A stretch of 64,000 nt of DNA, taken from positions 1,546,013 through 1,610,012 of the forward strand of contig CAXWPL010000005.1 in assembly GCA_963666215.2 (NCBI GenBank), given 5' to 3'. Within the stretch, counting starts at the first letter, position 1. The number at the start of each line of letters is the position of its first letter. Position numbers and translations under genes: made by a program. Under the pieces are notes generated by a model. It searched no databases. It was given only the letters and a program-made list of their open reading frames with translations, and was not told the DNA's origin. This stretch comes from Acidobacteriota bacterium (GTDB taxonomy: Bacteria; Acidobacteriota; UBA890; WLXD01). Shown piece by piece: positions 12,439 to 35,322 of this stretch.

Positions 12439-12703
12439 CCGAGCGGCGTGATTAGCAGGTAATGGCGCCGCTATGGCAGCTATGCCGTGCGCGTCGCGTC
12501 GCACTCGCTGAACTCGGCTGAGCTAGTGCTAGTGCACAGCTCTGCCACGCCGATGGAATGAGGATCAGCTCACTGGCTAGGGAGTCGTGCGGTCGCTGCC
12601 GGCGCCGATGACCTTCGAGCACGAGGGCAAACAGTACATCGTCGTGGCCTTCGGCGACCGCACGACGAAGCCCGAGCTCATCGGCTTCGTGCTCGGGACC
12701 TAG
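12439..12703. repeat. About 260-bp direct repeat, copy 2
   Basis: Matches 10366-10624 with about 7 substitutions and an extra CTAGTG. Confidence 0.9.
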
Positions 12704-12851
12704 AGGAGCGTGTCCGAGTGTTCCTTCTGAGCCGTTCCCCGGAGCGAATAGGAAGCACCGCCCGGGTGCGCCGTCCTCGGCGCCAAAAGGCAACTAGCCG
12801 GGGCGCGCCTAGCGCAGGAAATGATAGCCATCATTTCCTGCGCTAGGCTAG
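12700..12851 (+). repeat. CTAG-bounded REP-like module, type A
   Basis: GGAGCGTGTCCGAG...GCGAATAGGAAGCA...GCGCCGTCCTCGGCGCCAA...; ends in a perfect 19-bp-arm palindrome at 12807-12848; similar to 19805-19935 and 32443-32574. Confidence 0.85.
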
Positions 12852-31455: not shown

Positions 31456-31472
31456 AGCACTTCCCATGCCAA
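31456..31472 (-). promoter_or_regulatory. Sigma54 -24/-12 promoter of the desaturase-GH3-enolase operon
   Basis: TTGGCATGGGAAGTGCT has exact GG-N10-GC spacing just upstream of the first gene. Confidence 0.65.
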
Positions 31473-31567
31473 CTCGGCGGCAGAGCCATGGCTCTGCCGC
31501 TGAGGGCGCCCTCGCTTCGCACGCACACTCCGGTCTACAATCACTCATCGACCCAAGAGGAGAGCGT

Positions 31568-32359
31568 ATGCAGTCAGTGACGGCTCAGGTCCGATATCTC
31601 AACCCTGATTGGAGAGGTCGCAGCGAAATGCCTCGCATCGGCGATCGCGAGTCGCGGCATGCCAACACCAGCAAGCGCGCGGTCGACATCTTCGACGCAC
31701 GGGGCATGGACCTCGGCCTCGACTCGGCAGGCTTCATGCTCACCAAGCACCGATCGAAGGTCGGAGACTTTCACCAGGATGGGGAAGTCCGCGCCACTTA
31801 TTACGTCGAGATCGCTCGTCTACTCCAAGAGCTCACCGGGGCGGAGCATGCCCTCATCCTCCAGCATGTCGTTCGGACCGAGGACACCAGCGACTTCAAC
31901 AAGGCCTACGCGCGCTTCGTTCACTGCGACTACTCGGTCAGAGATGCTCGAGGAAACGCCGAGAGAACCTTGCTCGCTCACGGCTTGGAGCTGACTCCGT
32001 CCCAGCAATGGGAATTCGCCTGGTTCAACACCTGGCAGCCGATCGAGCGCGAAGTGCTCAAGAATCCGCTGGCGATGATCGACGCAAGAACTCTCTCGTT
32101 CGACGACGTTGTCGACTATGAGTACAGTGGGTACGGAGAGCCGGTGCGCAGCTCGATGCCGGCCTTCAATCCGGACCACAAGCTCTATTTCTTCCCGCGA
32201 ATGCAGACCGACGAAGTGCTCGTGATGAAGCAGCTCGACACGCGACTCGACCGCGCCAGGCTGTGTCCGCACACTTCCTTCGACATCGACGCGCCGGCGG
32301 ACGCGCCGGGCCGCCGCAGCATCGAAGTAAGGATCATGTGTGCCTTTCGTAAACGCTAG
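31568..32359 (+). CDS. CmcJ/NvfI (AsaB-like) oxidoreductase
   Basis: IFDARG...LDSAGF, ARFVHCDYS, NTWQPI, PLAMIDA, FPRMQTDEVLVMKQLD, PHTSF, RRSIEVR. Confidence 0.85.
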   Translation: MQSVTAQVRYLNPDWRGRSEMPRIGDRESRHANTSKRAVDIFDARGMDLGLDSAGFMLTKHRSKVGDFHQDGEVRATYYVEIARLLQELTGAEHALILQHVVRTEDTSDFNKAYARFVHCDYSVRDARGNAERTLLAHGLELTPSQQWEFAWFNTWQPIEREVLKNPLAMIDARTLSFDDVVDYEYSGYGEPVRSSMPAFNPDHKLYFFPRMQTDEVLVMKQLDTRLDRARLCPHTSFDIDAPADAPGRRSIEVRIMCAFRKR

Positions 32360-32581
32360 GAGCGTGTCCGAGAATTCGGACAGGCGAGTAGTTCTCAGGC
32401 GGGGATGGGCCGGAGAACGGGCCGCAGGTCCGTTCTCCGGGGCTAGGAGCGTGTCCGAGTATTCGTCCTGAGCCGTTTCCGTGAGCGAATAGGAAGCAAC
32501 GCCCAAGTGCGCCGTCCTCGGCGCCAAGAGACAACTAGGCGGAGGAAATGATAGCCATCATTTCTGGAGCCTAGGAGCGTG
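32356..32581 (+). repeat. Array of CTAG-bounded modules (B, A, start of an interrupted B)
   Basis: CTAGGAGCGTG at 32356, 32443 and 32571; internal hairpins TGTCCGA..TCGGACA and CCGGAGAACGG..CCGTTCTCCGG. Confidence 0.88.
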
Positions 32582-32599
32582 TATCTGGACTCCCGTGTC

Positions 32600-32894
32600 A
32601 AGTAGTTGATTTCAACTCATAGAGAGATTCTGGTTTTCTCGGTCTTCGGGCTGAGAGTGGTAGGTCAGACAGCAGACGTATCTCCGGCCTCAGATTGGCG
32701 TGACGATGTGTGCACGCCGGGCCATGATGGAAAAGTGCGCGTGAGGGAGCCGAATCGTCCGAGAAAACGGCCTCGAGGGCCAACGCTCCTAGCGGCTTGT
32801 GCCCTCACGCCAGTCTGACTGGAAACCATCAAAGTCCTTGGATCGAGCTGTGAGTGGATGGGGGTTACGAGTAGGTTGTGGTCGTTCGGTCGTC
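32600..32894 (-). ncRNA. Predicted bridge/seek RNA region
   Basis: Segments 32783-32794 and 32757-32765 match opposite strands of the two halves of the target; RNA boundaries are not determinable. Confidence 0.75.
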
Positions 32895-33932
32895 TTAGGC
32901 AGCAGCGAGCAACGGCTTGGGCTCGAAGGCGCGCTTACGGGTCCACACGGCCCAGACAATGCGGGCCAACTTGTTGGCGAGGGCAACGGCGGCTTTGTTG
33001 GATCCTCGGCGGGTATCGACGTGCAGCGCCCACTGTTGGAGGCGGCCTTGGGGTTGTTTTCTCTTCGCCCACGACAGCACGGAGCGGGCCCCGTGGATCA
33101 GGAGCGTGCGCAGATAGCCGTCGCCGCGTTTGCTGATGCGTCCGAGCCAGCGTCGTGCGCCACTGGAGTGTTCGCGCGGCGTGAGCCCGAGATAGCTGGC
33201 AAGATGGCGTCCGCTCTTGAAGCGAGAGACATCTCCGATCCAGGCCACCAGGGCCGTGGCGGTCAGGACCCCGATGCCAGGAATGGTCATCAGCAGCTGC
33301 ACGGCTTCGAGCTGTTTGGCGAGCGCTTGGATGTGGTTGTCGATCTCCGCGATACGCTCGTGGAACTGCTCGATCTGATCGCATTGCGCTGCGAAGTGAG
33401 GGCGCAATGCCATGGGGATGTCCGTCTCGGCGTCGGCGATCAGCTCTCGGACCCTCGGCACGACGCGCGCACGTCCTAGAGGGATGAAGTGTCCGAATTC
33501 TCGCAAGTGCCCGCGTAGAGCGTTGCAGTGAGCCGTACGATCGCCGATGTAGGCCGCGCGCATCCGATGCAGAGTGGTGAGCGTTTGTTGCTCGAGCGAC
33601 TTGACAGGGACAGGCAGGATGTCTTCGTTGCGATACGCCTCGAGCATGCCTTTGGTGTCGGTTCGATCGGTCTTGTGGGCGCCGACATAGCGGTGGGTCA
33701 GGTGGGGTGGCAGCAGGACGACCGAGTGGCCGAGCTCTCCTATTTCCCGGCCCCAGTAGTGCGCGGAGCCACAGGCCTCCATGACCACCGTCGTGGGCTT
33801 GCGTTGTGCGAAGAAAGACAAAAAGCCAGCTCTTCGGACTCGATGCCGGTCCGCCACCTTTCCCGGCTCATGCGACACGGCGATCTCGAACACATCCTTG
33901 GCCAGGTCGACACCGATAACGGTATGCTTCAT
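32895..33932 (-). CDS. IS110-family DEDD recombinase
   Basis: IGVDLAK, VVMEACG, KTDRTD, TIPGIG, GLTPREHSSG, GRISKRGD, VALANKLARIVWAV. Confidence 0.95.
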   Translation of the reverse strand: MKHTVIGVDLAKDVFEIAVSHEPGKVADRHRVRRAGFLSFFAQRKPTTVVMEACGSAHYWGREIGELGHSVVLLPPHLTHRYVGAHKTDRTDTKGMLEAYRNEDILPVPVKSLEQQTLTTLHRMRAAYIGDRTAHCNALRGHLREFGHFIPLGRARVVPRVRELIADAETDIPMALRPHFAAQCDQIEQFHERIAEIDNHIQALAKQLEAVQLLMTIPGIGVLTATALVAWIGDVSRFKSGRHLASYLGLTPREHSSGARRWLGRISKRGDGYLRTLLIHGARSVLSWAKRKQPQGRLQQWALHVDTRRGSNKAAVALANKLARIVWAVWTRKRAFEPKPLLAAA

Positions 33933-34020
33933 GGGGCTCCCTTCCAGTACTAGAGTTTCGGTTTGGGCGACCCGCGGCACACAGATGCCGATCGAAGTCG
34001 CCAGGGAGTCCATTTCATCA

Positions 34021-34099
34021 TCCGAGTATCGGACAGGCGAGTAGTTCTCAGGAGGGGATGGGCCGGAGAACGGGCCGCGGGCCCATTCTCCGGGGCTAG
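34021..34099 (+). repeat. Distal part of the type B module interrupted by the IS
   Basis: TCCGAGTATCGGACAGGCGAGTAGTTCTCAGG...CTCCGGGGCTAG matches 32367-32446. Confidence 0.88.
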
Positions 34100-35322
34100 G
34101 TGGAGCTCTGCCGTTTAAAGGAGCTGGAGCGGCGCAGCCAGAGGACTACTGAACCGACCGCGAGACCCATGACGGCCAAAGCCGTCCGCTCGCCCAAGAC
34201 GTCGGCAAGATAGCCGATCGGCAGTCCCATCAAACCGAAGCCGGCGAAAGAAAGCATGGTCAGCGACATCACTCGCCCCACGTATCTCGGCTCGGTCGCG
34301 CCTACGATCACGGCGCCGGCGAGAGTCTGGAAACCGCCACTGAACACTCCCGCCACGAAGACGATCACGGTAAGGCCGAAGAAGCTCGGGGCGGCGGCGA
34401 CGGCCAATAGACTTAGGGCGAACCCCAGGGCCATCAGTGAGAAGAGAGCGGGGGAGCGGGGAGAGTCGGCGTAGCGCGCAACCACCACGCTCGCCGTCAG
34501 AGCACCGAGAGCAGTGACTCCGAATTGCACACTCGAAGACTCGGTGGGCAAGCCGAGCTGGTTCTGTACAAAGCCAGGCAATAGGGTGATGTATGGAAAG
34601 CCGAGGATGATGACAAGCGTAAAGAGGAGCATGAGCGGGCGCAGCTGGGGGTGATCACGCACGTAGCGAAGGCCGGCGAGGATGTCATCGAGTAGACGGG
34701 CTCGGGACGCGCCGCTAGACACGACGGATCGCGGGAGCAAGCCCAGGCTCAGAACCGAGATCAGGTAGAGAACGCCCATCACGATGTAGGCGGCCCACAC
34801 TCCGTCGGTCGACCACGCCAGAAAAGCCCCCGCAACCGCTGGGCCGAGCACCCTGCATCCACTATTCGCGACCTGAGTCAGTGCTATTGCGTTGCCTCGG
34901 CGTGCCTTTCCGACCAGCTCCACCGCCAGTGACTGGCGCGCCGGGCCCATGAACGCGAAGGAAGTGCCCATCACCGCCGAGCCCATCATCAGCCAACCAA
35001 TCTGGATGCGCTCGCTGGCGATACCCCACGCGATCCAAAAGAAGACCGACATCGTCAACAGCTGGCAGACTGCGATCACCCGGCGCTTGGGCCAGCGATC
35101 GGCAAGCGCGCCGCCCAGAGGGGCGAGGGTGAACATCATGATGCCCTGCGAGAAGACCACAAACCCCACGGCTCGGTTCTGCCCGGTGAGCTCAAAGGCC
35201 ACCACACTCTGGGTAACCATCGACATGAAAAAGGCGACGAAGGCGAAAATCGTTCCGATCCACAGGATGCGGAACGGGCGAACGGAGAGCGCCGCAAAAG
35301 TCTGTCTCAGATGTCCAGGCAC
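34096..35322 (-). CDS. MFS transporter
   Basis: About 12 TMs; GGALADRWPKRR, GPARQSL, GRVMSL. Confidence 0.88.
   Translation of the reverse strand: MPGHLRQTFAALSVRPFRILWIGTIFAFVAFFMSMVTQSVVAFELTGQNRAVGFVVFSQGIMMFTLAPLGGALADRWPKRRVIAVCQLLTMSVFFWIAWGIASERIQIGWLMMGSAVMGTSFAFMGPARQSLAVELVGKARRGNAIALTQVANSGCRVLGPAVAGAFLAWSTDGVWAAYIVMGVLYLISVLSLGLLPRSVVSSGASRARLLDDILAGLRYVRDHPQLRPLMLLFTLVIILGFPYITLLPGFVQNQLGLPTESSSVQFGVTALGALTASVVVARYADSPRSPALFSLMALGFALSLLAVAAAPSFFGLTVIVFVAGVFSGGFQTLAGAVIVGATEPRYVGRVMSLTMLSFAGFGLMGLPIGYLADVLGERTALAVMGLAVGSVVLWLRRSSSFKRQSST

What the first reader, a model, noticed from the sequence alone, without database searches (positions are those of the whole stretch)
32354..34099. 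IS1111-type recombinase whose non-coding RNA appears programmed against the host's own repeat family
Seen: the element (32582-34020) splits a repeat module at CTAGGAGCGTG|TCCGAG. Its region downstream of the transposase reads, in RNA sense, CGCUAGGAGCGU (32794-32783), a short GGCC..GGCC hairpin, then UUCUCGGAC (32765-32757). These match opposite strands and together cover 21 contiguous bp of the empty site CGCTAGGAGCGTGTCCGAGAA at 32354-32374. Further along, CAUCAU (32729-32724) and AGAUA (32683-32679) match the two halves of the predicted circle junction AGATA|TGATG in the same order, though these are short. Established: IS110/IS1111 elements use bridge/seekRNAs, and IS1111 members carry the non-coding region downstream and often target REP or attC sites. 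Inference: recombinase, guide, occupied site and empty sites are all visible, with long (12+9 nt) target matches to a repeat family I do not recognise.
Basis: partly seen in the sequence, partly recalled or inferred. Interest (0 to 1): 0.9.

Follow-up and report, generated by a model that had tools for sequence, protein, structure and literature searches.

The report
RNA-guided IS1111 element in repeat head
This is an intact jumping gene of the known RNA-guided IS110/IS1111 kind, whose own small RNA spells out the short repeat sequence it inserts into; it is a clean example, not a new type of system.

Summary
A 1439-bp element (32582-34020, minus strand) encodes a 345-aa IS110-family DEDD transposase, followed by a 313-nt non-coding region. 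In RNA sense, 12 nt and 9 nt flank a small hairpin. They match opposite strands of 21 contiguous bp of the empty site at 32354-32374. No shuffle reached this score (0 of 2000).

A covariance model built only from seven distant relatives finds one hit in the 64-kb window. That hit is this RNA (32663-32819, E 1.6e-10), with both matches in the homologous loop. In relatives, the same loop positions match each element's own flanks.

Six insertions with both junctions visible, across two genomes, sit at the same phosphodiester bond in the same orientation. They comprise this element and a 71%-identical relative.

The target is the roughly 20-bp head of small CTAG-flanked repeat modules. This genome has only two exact empty heads, both beside the element. 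Another genome has 61.

The element is 99.9% identical between the two genomes, which are otherwise unlike at the DNA level, so transfer was recent. Expression and activity were not shown.

Verdict: a new member of a known kind (IS1111-type bridge/seekRNA element). Moderate-to-low interest.

The parts
32582..34020 (-). Whole insertion sequence, 1439 bp
   Evidence: Limits come from comparison with the empty sites. They also come from two copies in another genome that align end to end, 1439 of 1439 bases at 99.86 and 99.93% identity.
32898..33932 (-). Transposase gene, 345 aa (stop codon 32895-32897)
   Evidence: Pfam PF01548 (9.6e-14) and PF02371 (8.3e-29). NCBIfam NF033542 'IS110 family RNA-guided transposase', 336.6 bits against a cut-off of 140. 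The motif GLTPREHSSG is read in the translation.
32663..32819 (-). Bridge/seekRNA gene, about 157 nt, with a target loop and a donor loop
   Evidence: It is the only hit in the window of covariance model R1, which was built from 7 distant relatives: 39.5 bits, E 1.6e-10, model positions 1-151 of 151. It coincides with the block conserved against the 71%-identical relative, whose flanks fall to 32-42% identity.
32783..32794 (-). 5' target guide (complementary to the top strand of the right half of the target, in element sense)
   Evidence: 12 of 12 with 32354-32365 (I5). 10 nt match at the occupied site. Lies in the homologous loop columns of alignment A3.
32768..32782 (-). Small GGCC/GGCC hairpin between the two target guides
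   Evidence: folds. Helix 3 of the family structure.
32757..32765 (-). 3' target guide (same sense as the top strand of the left half of the target)
   Evidence: 9 of 9 with 32366-32374. 7 nt match at the occupied site, counting the C just past the insertion point.
32802..32810 (-). 5' arm of the stem that closes the target loop (pairs with 32739-32747)
   Evidence: The 71% relative changes A-U to G-U here. Homologous to helix 2 of the family.
32739..32747 (-). 3' arm of the stem that closes the target loop
32724..32729 (-). 5' donor segment CAUCAU (complementary to the last base of the right end plus the first five bases of the left end)
   Evidence: The 71% relative has an 8-nt match here. 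Same columns as in relatives.
32678..32683 (-). 3' donor segment AGAUAC (last 5 bases of the element plus the first flanking base)
   Evidence: The homologous 7-mer of the RNA recurs at the element's right end in 41 of 58 rows (the 6-mer in 48 of 58), against 9 of 638 for foreign 7-mers. In the window the 6-mer recurs 76 nt downstream.
34004..34012 (-). Left sub-terminal inverted repeat TGGACTCCC, preceded by the 8-nt extension 34013-34020
   Evidence: Read. 9 bp, perfectly complementary to 32586-32594.
32586..32594 (-). Right sub-terminal inverted repeat, followed by the 4-nt extension 32582-32585
32596..32601 (-). TTGACA near the right end; inferred -35 box of a promoter formed when the ends are joined in a circle
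   Evidence: Inference. With the ends abutted there is a 17-nt spacer and then TGAAAT (34017-34012), preceded by TG. PMC11187229 (Introduction read) says circles of these families create such a promoter.
32571..32581 (+). Left half (plus strand) of the occupied target head
   Evidence: D3.
34021..34026 (+). Right half (plus strand) of the occupied target head, start of module A'
   Evidence: D1.
32354..32374 (+). Empty target site 1 (21 of 21 match to the guides); head of module A (32356-32442)
32442..32462 (+). Empty target site 2 (19 of 21); head of module B (32443-32570)

Best explanation
It is an intact IS1111-group member of the IS110 family, an RNA-guided insertion sequence. The transposase gene is followed by a gene for a bridge/seekRNA of about 157 nt with two loops.

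In the first loop, a 5' guide pairs with the top strand of the right half of the target, and a 3' guide pairs with the bottom strand of the left half. A small hairpin separates the two guides. In the second loop, two short segments match the joined ends of the excised circular element.

By analogy with tested relatives, the recombinase bound to this RNA brings the circle and the target together and exchanges strands. Exchange occurs between ...CTCGGA and CACGCTCCTAG... (element sense), always in one orientation and without a target duplication. The target is the head of small CTAG-flanked repeat modules.

Shown here: family membership, RNA homology, guide-target and guide-end matches, and repeated insertion at one bond. 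Inferred: that the RNA is made and bound, that a circle forms, and that the element is active now.
For: Protein. Pfam PF01548 and PF02371 both match. NCBIfam NF033542 scores 336.6 bits against a cut-off of 140. The closest named relative is an ISPa25-family transposase, 49.9% identical over 98% of the length.

RNA. Model R1 was built from 7 relatives with transposases at most 43% identical, and excluded the window. It hits the window once, full length, E 1.6e-10. It finds an RNA in 60 of the 65 sources searched.

Family structure. 88.5% of cells are paired, 9 of 27 pairs show changes on both sides, and 0 of 500 shuffles reach the covariation score.

Guides. 21 of 21 at the empty site, with 0 of 2000 shuffles as good.

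Covariation with flanks. For 8 elements with exact ends, the own-flank score averages 15.25 (minimum 13) and foreign flanks 9.7 (maximum 12). Two pairs of about 95%-identical elements (L026/L037 and L031/L025) differ in the guides and, correspondingly, in the flanks. Over 45 unique guide pairs, without set ends, own flanks average 15.3 and foreign 10.9.

Donor segment. The RNA's 7-mer recurs at the right end in 41 of 58 rows, against 9 of 638 for foreign 7-mers.

Insertions. Six have both junctions visible: the window, 2 copies in G001, and 3 copies of the 71% relative. One truncated copy and one metagenome contig add the right junction only. All lie at the same bond and in the same orientation.

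The 71% relative keeps the RNA core at 72-82% identity, while the flanking non-coding DNA falls to 32-42%.
Against: There is no evidence that the RNA is made. The only RNA-library contig covers 32483-32673 and not the RNA core, and contigs cannot show transcription. No sigma-70-like promoter was found inside the element.

The fold of the whole non-coding region is no more stable than shuffles (z -0.65; 32 of 100 shuffles fold as well).

The window's RNA is among the weakest hits of the model (39.5 bits, against 72-164 bits for most relatives).

The donor matches are short (6 and 6 nt).

The two bases next to the crossover differ among partners. The left junction reads TG, the right junction and empty sites read CA, and the RNA reads CG at the homologous positions. 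In most relatives these two bases match.

In the 45-row test, the own flank was the unique best in only 20 rows, and 11 rows ranked poorly.

There is only one copy and two perfect free sites in this genome.
Confidence: 0.9

Rival explanations
1. The element is a dead passenger here. It arrived by transfer together with its flanking repeat modules, and it no longer moves in this genome, whatever its RNA encodes.
For: There is one copy in 4.65 Mb and only 2 exact free heads, both adjacent. The local modules are 97-100% identical to copies in G001, while 12.3 kb of neighbouring genes have no real DNA match there. This fits import of the whole A-B-element-A' block.
Against: The reading frame, both ends and the RNA are intact. 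They are 99.86-99.93% identical to copies elsewhere, so any loss of activity would be very recent. Two perfect target sites lie within 230 bp. This reading concerns present activity, not what the element is.
Confidence: 0.3
2. The target is chosen by the protein recognising the DNA hairpin in the repeat head. The matches in the non-coding region would be a captured fragment of the repeat, not a guide.
For: The head contains a near-palindrome (GTCCGAG-WAT-TCGGAC, D2/D4). A further 14-nt copy of it lies inside the transposase gene (I2), which shows that pieces of the head sequence do occur in the element outside the RNA.
Against: The two matches lie on opposite strands, abut exactly at the insertion point and flank a conserved hairpin. 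A captured fragment would not do that. Relatives with unrelated, non-palindromic targets carry their own target halves at the same loop positions. Experiments on family members show that the RNA is required and programmable (PMC11187229, sections 9 and 10 read).
Confidence: 0.03
3. The 12+9 match is chance similarity between a GC-rich non-coding region and a GC-rich repeat.
For: Single short matches (6-7 nt) between foreign guides and flanks are common. Foreign-flank scores reach 12-18.
Against: 0 of 2000 shuffles reach the observed score. The position agrees with an independently built RNA model. The guides are kept in a 71% relative with the same target.
Confidence: 0.01

Closest known systems
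IS1111-group insertion sequences with seekRNA (ISEc11, ISPa11, ISKpn4/ISPst6, ISPa25; Siddiquee et al. 2024, PMC11187229; abstract and sections 4, 6, 9, 10, 13 read)
   Same: DEDD transposase of 330-350 aa with the GL-P----SG motif. Long non-coding region downstream of the gene. Sub-terminal inverted repeats. The top-strand match lies 5' of the bottom-strand match in the RNA. One orientation and no target duplication. Closely related elements are naturally re-aimed. A repeat serves as target (ISPa11 targets REP sequences).
   Different: The transposase is at most 49.9% identical to a named member (ISPa25 family). The inverted repeat is 9 bp where 11-13 is said to be usual. The terminal extensions are 8+4 nt rather than 7+3. 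The two target matches abut (12+9), whereas the paper describes them as overlapping. The target sequence is new. The host is from a little-studied lineage; the record holding identical copies is labelled Thermoanaerobaculia.
IS621 and other IS110-group bridge-RNA recombinases (Durrant et al. 2024, PMC11208160; passages on IS1111 read)
   Same: One RNA with a target-binding loop and a donor-binding loop. Each loop reads two strands either side of the crossover. That paper predicts such RNAs in the right end of 93% of IS1111 elements.
   Different: Here the RNA lies downstream of the gene, not upstream. The order of the strand matches is reversed. The sub-terminal repeats are long. The two bases beside the crossover are not the same in target (CA) and element end (TG). 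That IS621 uses an identical core dinucleotide in both partners is recalled, not checked in a call.
[quoted passage not shown]
   Same: An IS1111-type element whose target is the end sequence of another mobile element. In genome G007 the same head motif forms the terminal inverted repeats of small CTAG-flanked elements.
   Different: In the window's genome and in G001 the head stands at one end only of modules that lie in direct tandem arrays. It does not form inverted pairs there.
ISPpu9 of Pseudomonas putida (PMC12288879; search listing and abstract only)
   Same: An IS110-family element inserted in repetitive extragenic palindromes, with a small-RNA gene downstream of the transposase.
   Different: No extra stand-alone copies of the RNA gene were found here. 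The whole-element DNA search of the genome gave only the element and one 65% relative.

Membership tests
IS110 family (DEDD, RNA-guided transposases) | Transposase with the N-terminal DEDD/RuvC-like domain and the C-terminal PF02371 domain | tested here: met
   PF01548, 51.9 bits (cut-off 29). PF02371, 100.2 bits (cut-off 21.3). NF033542, 336.6 bits (cut-off 140).
IS1111 group | Longer non-coding region downstream of the transposase gene | tested here: met
   313 nt lie downstream and 88 nt upstream of the 345-aa frame.
IS1111 group | Sub-terminal inverted repeats (7-17 bp in PMC11208160; usually 11-13 bp in PMC11187229) with short asymmetric terminal extensions (7 left, 3 right) | tested here: met
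   A 9-bp perfect repeat, 34004-34012 with 32586-32594. The extensions are 8 and 4 nt (or 9 and 3, given the one ambiguous base), so each is one base longer than the stated norm. Relatives such as L012 show 7+3.
IS1111 group | Transposase 330-350 aa with a GL-P----S(t)G motif | tested here: met
   345 aa. GLTPREHSSG is read in the translation. The criterion comes from PMC11187229, section 6.
IS1111 group | RNA holds a top-strand complement 5' of a bottom-strand complement of the target | tested here: met
   This assumes that 'top' means the strand read in the direction of the transposase gene.
IS1111 group | Site- and orientation-specific insertion without target duplication | tested here: met
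   6 of 6 insertions with both junctions, and 2 of 2 with one junction, lie at the same bond in the same orientation. No bases are duplicated beyond one ambiguous A.
IS1111 group | Non-coding RNA homologous to that of other members | tested here: met
   A model built from 7 relatives hits the window at E 1.6e-10, full length. However, Rfam 15 gave no match at E up to 1 over 31500-35000. No RNA of an experimentally studied member (ISEc11, ISPa11, ISKpn4) was compared.
IS1111 group | RNA co-purifies with the transposase and is needed for movement; a circular intermediate forms with abutted ends | not testable with these tools
   Only an inferred junction promoter (TTGACA, 17 nt, TGAAAT) supports a circle.
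REP/RAYT systems (considered for the target repeat) | Repeats associated with a Y1 (PF01797) transposase gene | tested here: not met
   No PF01797 match in the window's genome or in G007. There are 12 over the cut-off in G001, but 0 of these 12 loci carry the head motif within 1.5 kb.

The most novel reading that the evidence does not exclude
The small non-coding modules that begin with the target head may not be mere landing pads. They may be passengers of the same recombination system. Recombination between heads, or excision of larger circles that take neighbouring modules along, would build the direct head-to-tail arrays and carry modules together with the element into new genomes.

Pointers are as follows. 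In G001, 15 neighbour pairs of heads lie on the same strand and 1 on opposite strands (read off). Mixed A-B-A arrays recur. In this genome the A-B-element-A' block is 97-100% like copies in an otherwise dissimilar genome. A genome that lacks this element uses the same motif only as inverted ends of MITE-like elements, with 6 opposite-strand pairs and 0 same-strand.

Nothing here shows a mechanism. Unequal crossing-over between heads, or an unknown CTAG-specific transposase, would explain the arrays equally well.
Probability: 0.05. Interest if true: 0.7.

Novelty: new member of a known kind. Interest (0 to 1): 0.3.

Why it matters
The locus shows every part of an RNA-guided recombination system in one place: recombinase, RNA, both guides, donor ends, one occupied site and two empty sites. 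The host lineage has few studied mobile elements. The long target match (up to 21 nt) and the well-defined ends make it a usable candidate for bench characterisation as a further programmable recombinase.

The set of relatives gathered here includes two pairs of about 95%-identical elements aimed at different sites. They give natural examples of re-aiming.

It does not change what is known about how these elements work. For annotation, the practical point is that 32663-32819 is an RNA gene, and that the small hairpin-rich modules around it are mobile-element targets rather than regulatory sites.

Tried and rejected
Rfam 15 over 31500-35000 at E up to 1 gave no family. The RNA model therefore had to be built here.

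RNAalifold on a plain MAFFT alignment of 9 RNAs gave only 9 pairs. The window's stems were shifted by 1-3 columns against the relatives. This was replaced by a hand-set structure on the 7 relatives and a covariance model.

Fold stability of the whole non-coding region is not better than shuffles and gives no support.

Expression. One metatranscriptome run held a small share of the element's words. When laid, its contig covers 32483-32673 only. That is no evidence for or against transcription of the RNA.

RAYT/REPtron origin of the repeat was rejected.

Synteny test for the block having been inserted between the two convergent genes. The downstream gene (34099-35322) has no match at E 1e-30 in 10 genomes of the same family, so no empty locus could be compared.

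A first Pfam call failed on a frame slip and was repeated with corrected coordinates.

The second IS110-family element of this genome (L002) was examined as a further guide-flank test. Its right end is rearranged 32 nt after its RNA, so it could not be used.

Supplementary files of the two key papers could not be seen. They hold the RNA sequences and target logos of named elements, which might show a closer relative or the same target.
Full report
WHAT IS THERE

The plus strand of 32354-34100 reads as follows: head + module A (32356-32442), head + module B (32443-32570), half a head (32571-32581), a 1439-bp element (32582-34020), then the other half of the head and a second A-type module (34021-34095).

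The element lies on the minus strand. It carries one long frame, and the 345-aa version (33932-32898) is the real one. It has a Shine-Dalgarno-like AGGGAG before it. It aligns from residue 5 to position 1 of the NCBIfam model NF033542, 'IS110 family RNA-guided transposase' (336.6 bits, cut-off 140). Pfam finds both family domains. The closest named relative in the plasmid collection is an ISPa25-family transposase at 49.9% identity.

Behind the gene lie 313 non-coding bases. The ends carry a perfect 9-bp sub-terminal inverted repeat, with 8 further bases on the left and 4 on the right.

All four strings sit at the stated coordinates. The 12-mer and the 9-mer lie on opposite strands, abut on the target, and together cover 21 of 21 bp of the empty site at 32354-32374. 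None of 2000 dinucleotide-preserving shuffles of the non-coding region reaches the observed combined score, either for that site (21; shuffle maximum 17) or for the occupied site (16; maximum 15).

In the predicted fold the two matches are the two sides of an internal loop. A 9-bp stem closes the loop and a GGCC hairpin separates the two sides. The two short matches to the element's ends flank a second stem-loop. The fold as a whole is no more stable than shuffled sequence, so the structure argument rests on comparison, not on energy.

COMPARISON WITH RELATIVES

A scan of one genome per species found 154 relatives of the transposase, of which the best 80 were kept. Two of these encode the identical protein in another genome, G001, a 6.8-Mb chromosome whose record is labelled Thermoanaerobaculia. 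All the others are at most 43% identical, and most are labelled Alphaproteobacteria.

G001 holds two full copies of the element at 99.86 and 99.93% DNA identity. It also holds a truncated copy, some fragments, and three copies of a relative that is 71% identical at the DNA level.

Against that relative, the non-coding region is conserved only from about 70 to 230 nt behind the stop codon (72-82% identity). The DNA on either side of that block is 32-42% identical. So the RNA gene is about 160 nt long.

I built a covariance model from the corresponding stretch of seven distant relatives, leaving out the window and the 71% relative. Its hand-set structure of five helices is paired in 88.5% of cells. 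It has changes on both sides in 9 of 27 pairs, and it beats all 500 column shuffles and all slid controls.

The model finds exactly one match in the 64-kb window: 32663-32819 on the minus strand, full length, E 1.6e-10. I gave the model 65 sources, roughly one per group of near-identical loci, leaving out short or duplicate loci. It finds an RNA in 60 of them. The window's RNA is among the weakest hits.

DO THE LOOP POSITIONS READ THE TARGET?

Ends could be set exactly, from several copies, for eight elements. In each, the stretch in the first loop position is the reverse complement of the element's own right flank. The stretch 17-25 nt further on repeats its own left flank. Own-flank scores average 15.25 (minimum 13), and foreign flanks average 9.7 (maximum 12).

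Two pairs of elements about 95% identical to each other (L026/L037 and L031/L025) differ in these loop bases and in their flanks in the corresponding way. This is natural re-aiming of the kind described for ISEc11 and ISXne4 (PMC11187229, section 10).

A cruder test needs no ends. It was run on 45 unique guide pairs taken from the model alignment. Own flanks average 15.3 and foreign flanks 10.9. The own flank is the unique best in 20 rows, within two of the best in 14 more, and poor in 11.

For the donor side, the 7-mer after the second stem recurs at the right end of the element (last 5 bases plus 2) in 41 of 58 rows. Foreign 7-mers recur in 9 of 638 comparisons. In the window only the first 6 bases recur.

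WHERE IT INSERTS

Six insertions show both junctions: the window, two copies in G001, and three copies of the 71% relative. The truncated G001 copy and a marine-sediment contig show the right junction only. All lie between ...CTCGGA and CACGCTCCTAG... (element sense), in the same orientation and without duplication.

Across these sites the bases always matched by the guides are 10 on the right and 7 on the left. The full 12+9 is met by some sites only.

THE TARGET

The 17-mer head occurs 61 times exactly in G001, and 85 times at up to 2 mismatches against 18 for the reversed control. It is often spaced at 87 or 128 bp, the lengths of modules A and B. Mixed A-B-A arrays recur there, and the A-B composite of the window matches five G001 loci at 90-97% over nearly its full length, with B alone up to 100%.

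In the window's own genome there are 2 exact heads, both beside the element, and 7 sites at up to 2 mismatches, against about 1.4 expected by composition and 5 for the reversed control.

Among the 26 genomes of the same class, including the window's own, 4 have the motif at up to 1 mismatch. In one of them, G007, it forms the inverted ends of CTAG-flanked elements of about 40-280 bp. That genome has only a 34%-identical relative of the transposase.

The repeats are not tied to a Y1 transposase. So the target is the end sequence of a small mobile-element-like repeat family of this lineage. This parallels REP-targeting and transposon-end-targeting IS1111 members.

ORIGIN

12.3 kb of genes next to the locus have no real DNA match in G001; the best is 81% over 54 bases. 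Yet the element is 99.9% identical and the modules 97-100% identical. The element, and probably the block of modules around it, therefore reached one or both genomes recently.

The element's words are held by 20 of 22 listed public runs from 9 studies, among them runs labelled marine sediment and sponge metagenomes.

WHAT DOES NOT FIT NEATLY

The two bases beside the crossover read TG at the left junction, CA at the right junction and in empty sites, and CG at the homologous positions of both RNA segments. In most relatives these two bases agree.

A G-T wobble would let the RNA pair with the CA site. That is inference. The true circle junction is unknown.

The terminal extensions are each one base longer than the 7+3 given as the rule. 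No transcript evidence was obtained.

VERDICT

This is a well-preserved new member of the IS1111 group of RNA-guided insertion sequences, with a new target. Confidence is 0.9.

It is not a new kind of system. The RNA-guided mechanism, the downstream RNA, the order of the strand matches, repeats as targets and natural re-aiming are all in print (PMC11187229; PMC11208160).

Noticed in passing
window 33490-33503 versus 32369-32382: A 14-nt perfect inverted match between the transposase coding sequence (codons for REFGH) and the hairpin part of the target head (I2). 0 of 300 codon shuffles reach 14; the maximum is 12. The 71% relative lacks it. No explanation.
   Followed up: partly
window 32357-32359 and 34096-34098: The whole A-B-element-A' block is bounded by CTAG on both sides. 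These two CTAGs hold the stop codons of the two convergent flanking genes (31466-32359 on plus, 34096-35322 on minus). Without the block, the genes would share one CTAG. No empty locus was found in kin to test this.
   Followed up: partly
window about 12702-12830 (G000:C5:1558714): A diverged copy of module B with a head carrying 2 mismatches (AGAGGAGCGTGTCCGAG). It is the only other B-like module seen in this genome.
   Followed up: no
L002 (G000:C5:1318709-1322791) and L090 (G001): A second IS110-family element with its own RNA (60.5 bits) is shared by both genomes at 99.8% over 1268 bp, running from codon 2 of the gene to 32 nt past the RNA. The next 1223 bp, 100% identical, lie on the opposite side and inverted in the two genomes. 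The copy in the window's genome lacks its right end within 200 nt. This may be an inversion or rearrangement at the element.
   Followed up: partly
L050:2787-3172: Behind the RNA gene of an alphaproteobacterial relative lie three further tandem copies (period 142) of a 102-nt partial RNA. Each has the donor domain but lacks the target loop.
   Followed up: no
L026 versus L037, and L031 versus L025: Pairs of about 95%-identical elements whose target-loop bases and flanks differ together. These are natural re-aiming events.
   Followed up: yes
G001:C1:6023784-6026844 and 5984690-5984921 (L085, L089, L091): One copy of the element in G001 is broken. Bases 282-1439 stand 86 bp (one A module) upstream of a full copy. 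Bases 233-286 lie 1.85 kb further on. Bases 1-232 lie 39 kb away.
   Followed up: no
G001 and G007: Heads that lie within 300 bp of each other are on the same strand in G001 (15 pairs, against 1 opposite). In G007 they are on opposite strands (6 pairs, against 0 same). The motif heads one-way tandem modules in one genome and forms inverted ends in the other. Counts were read by eye from the two lists.
   Followed up: partly
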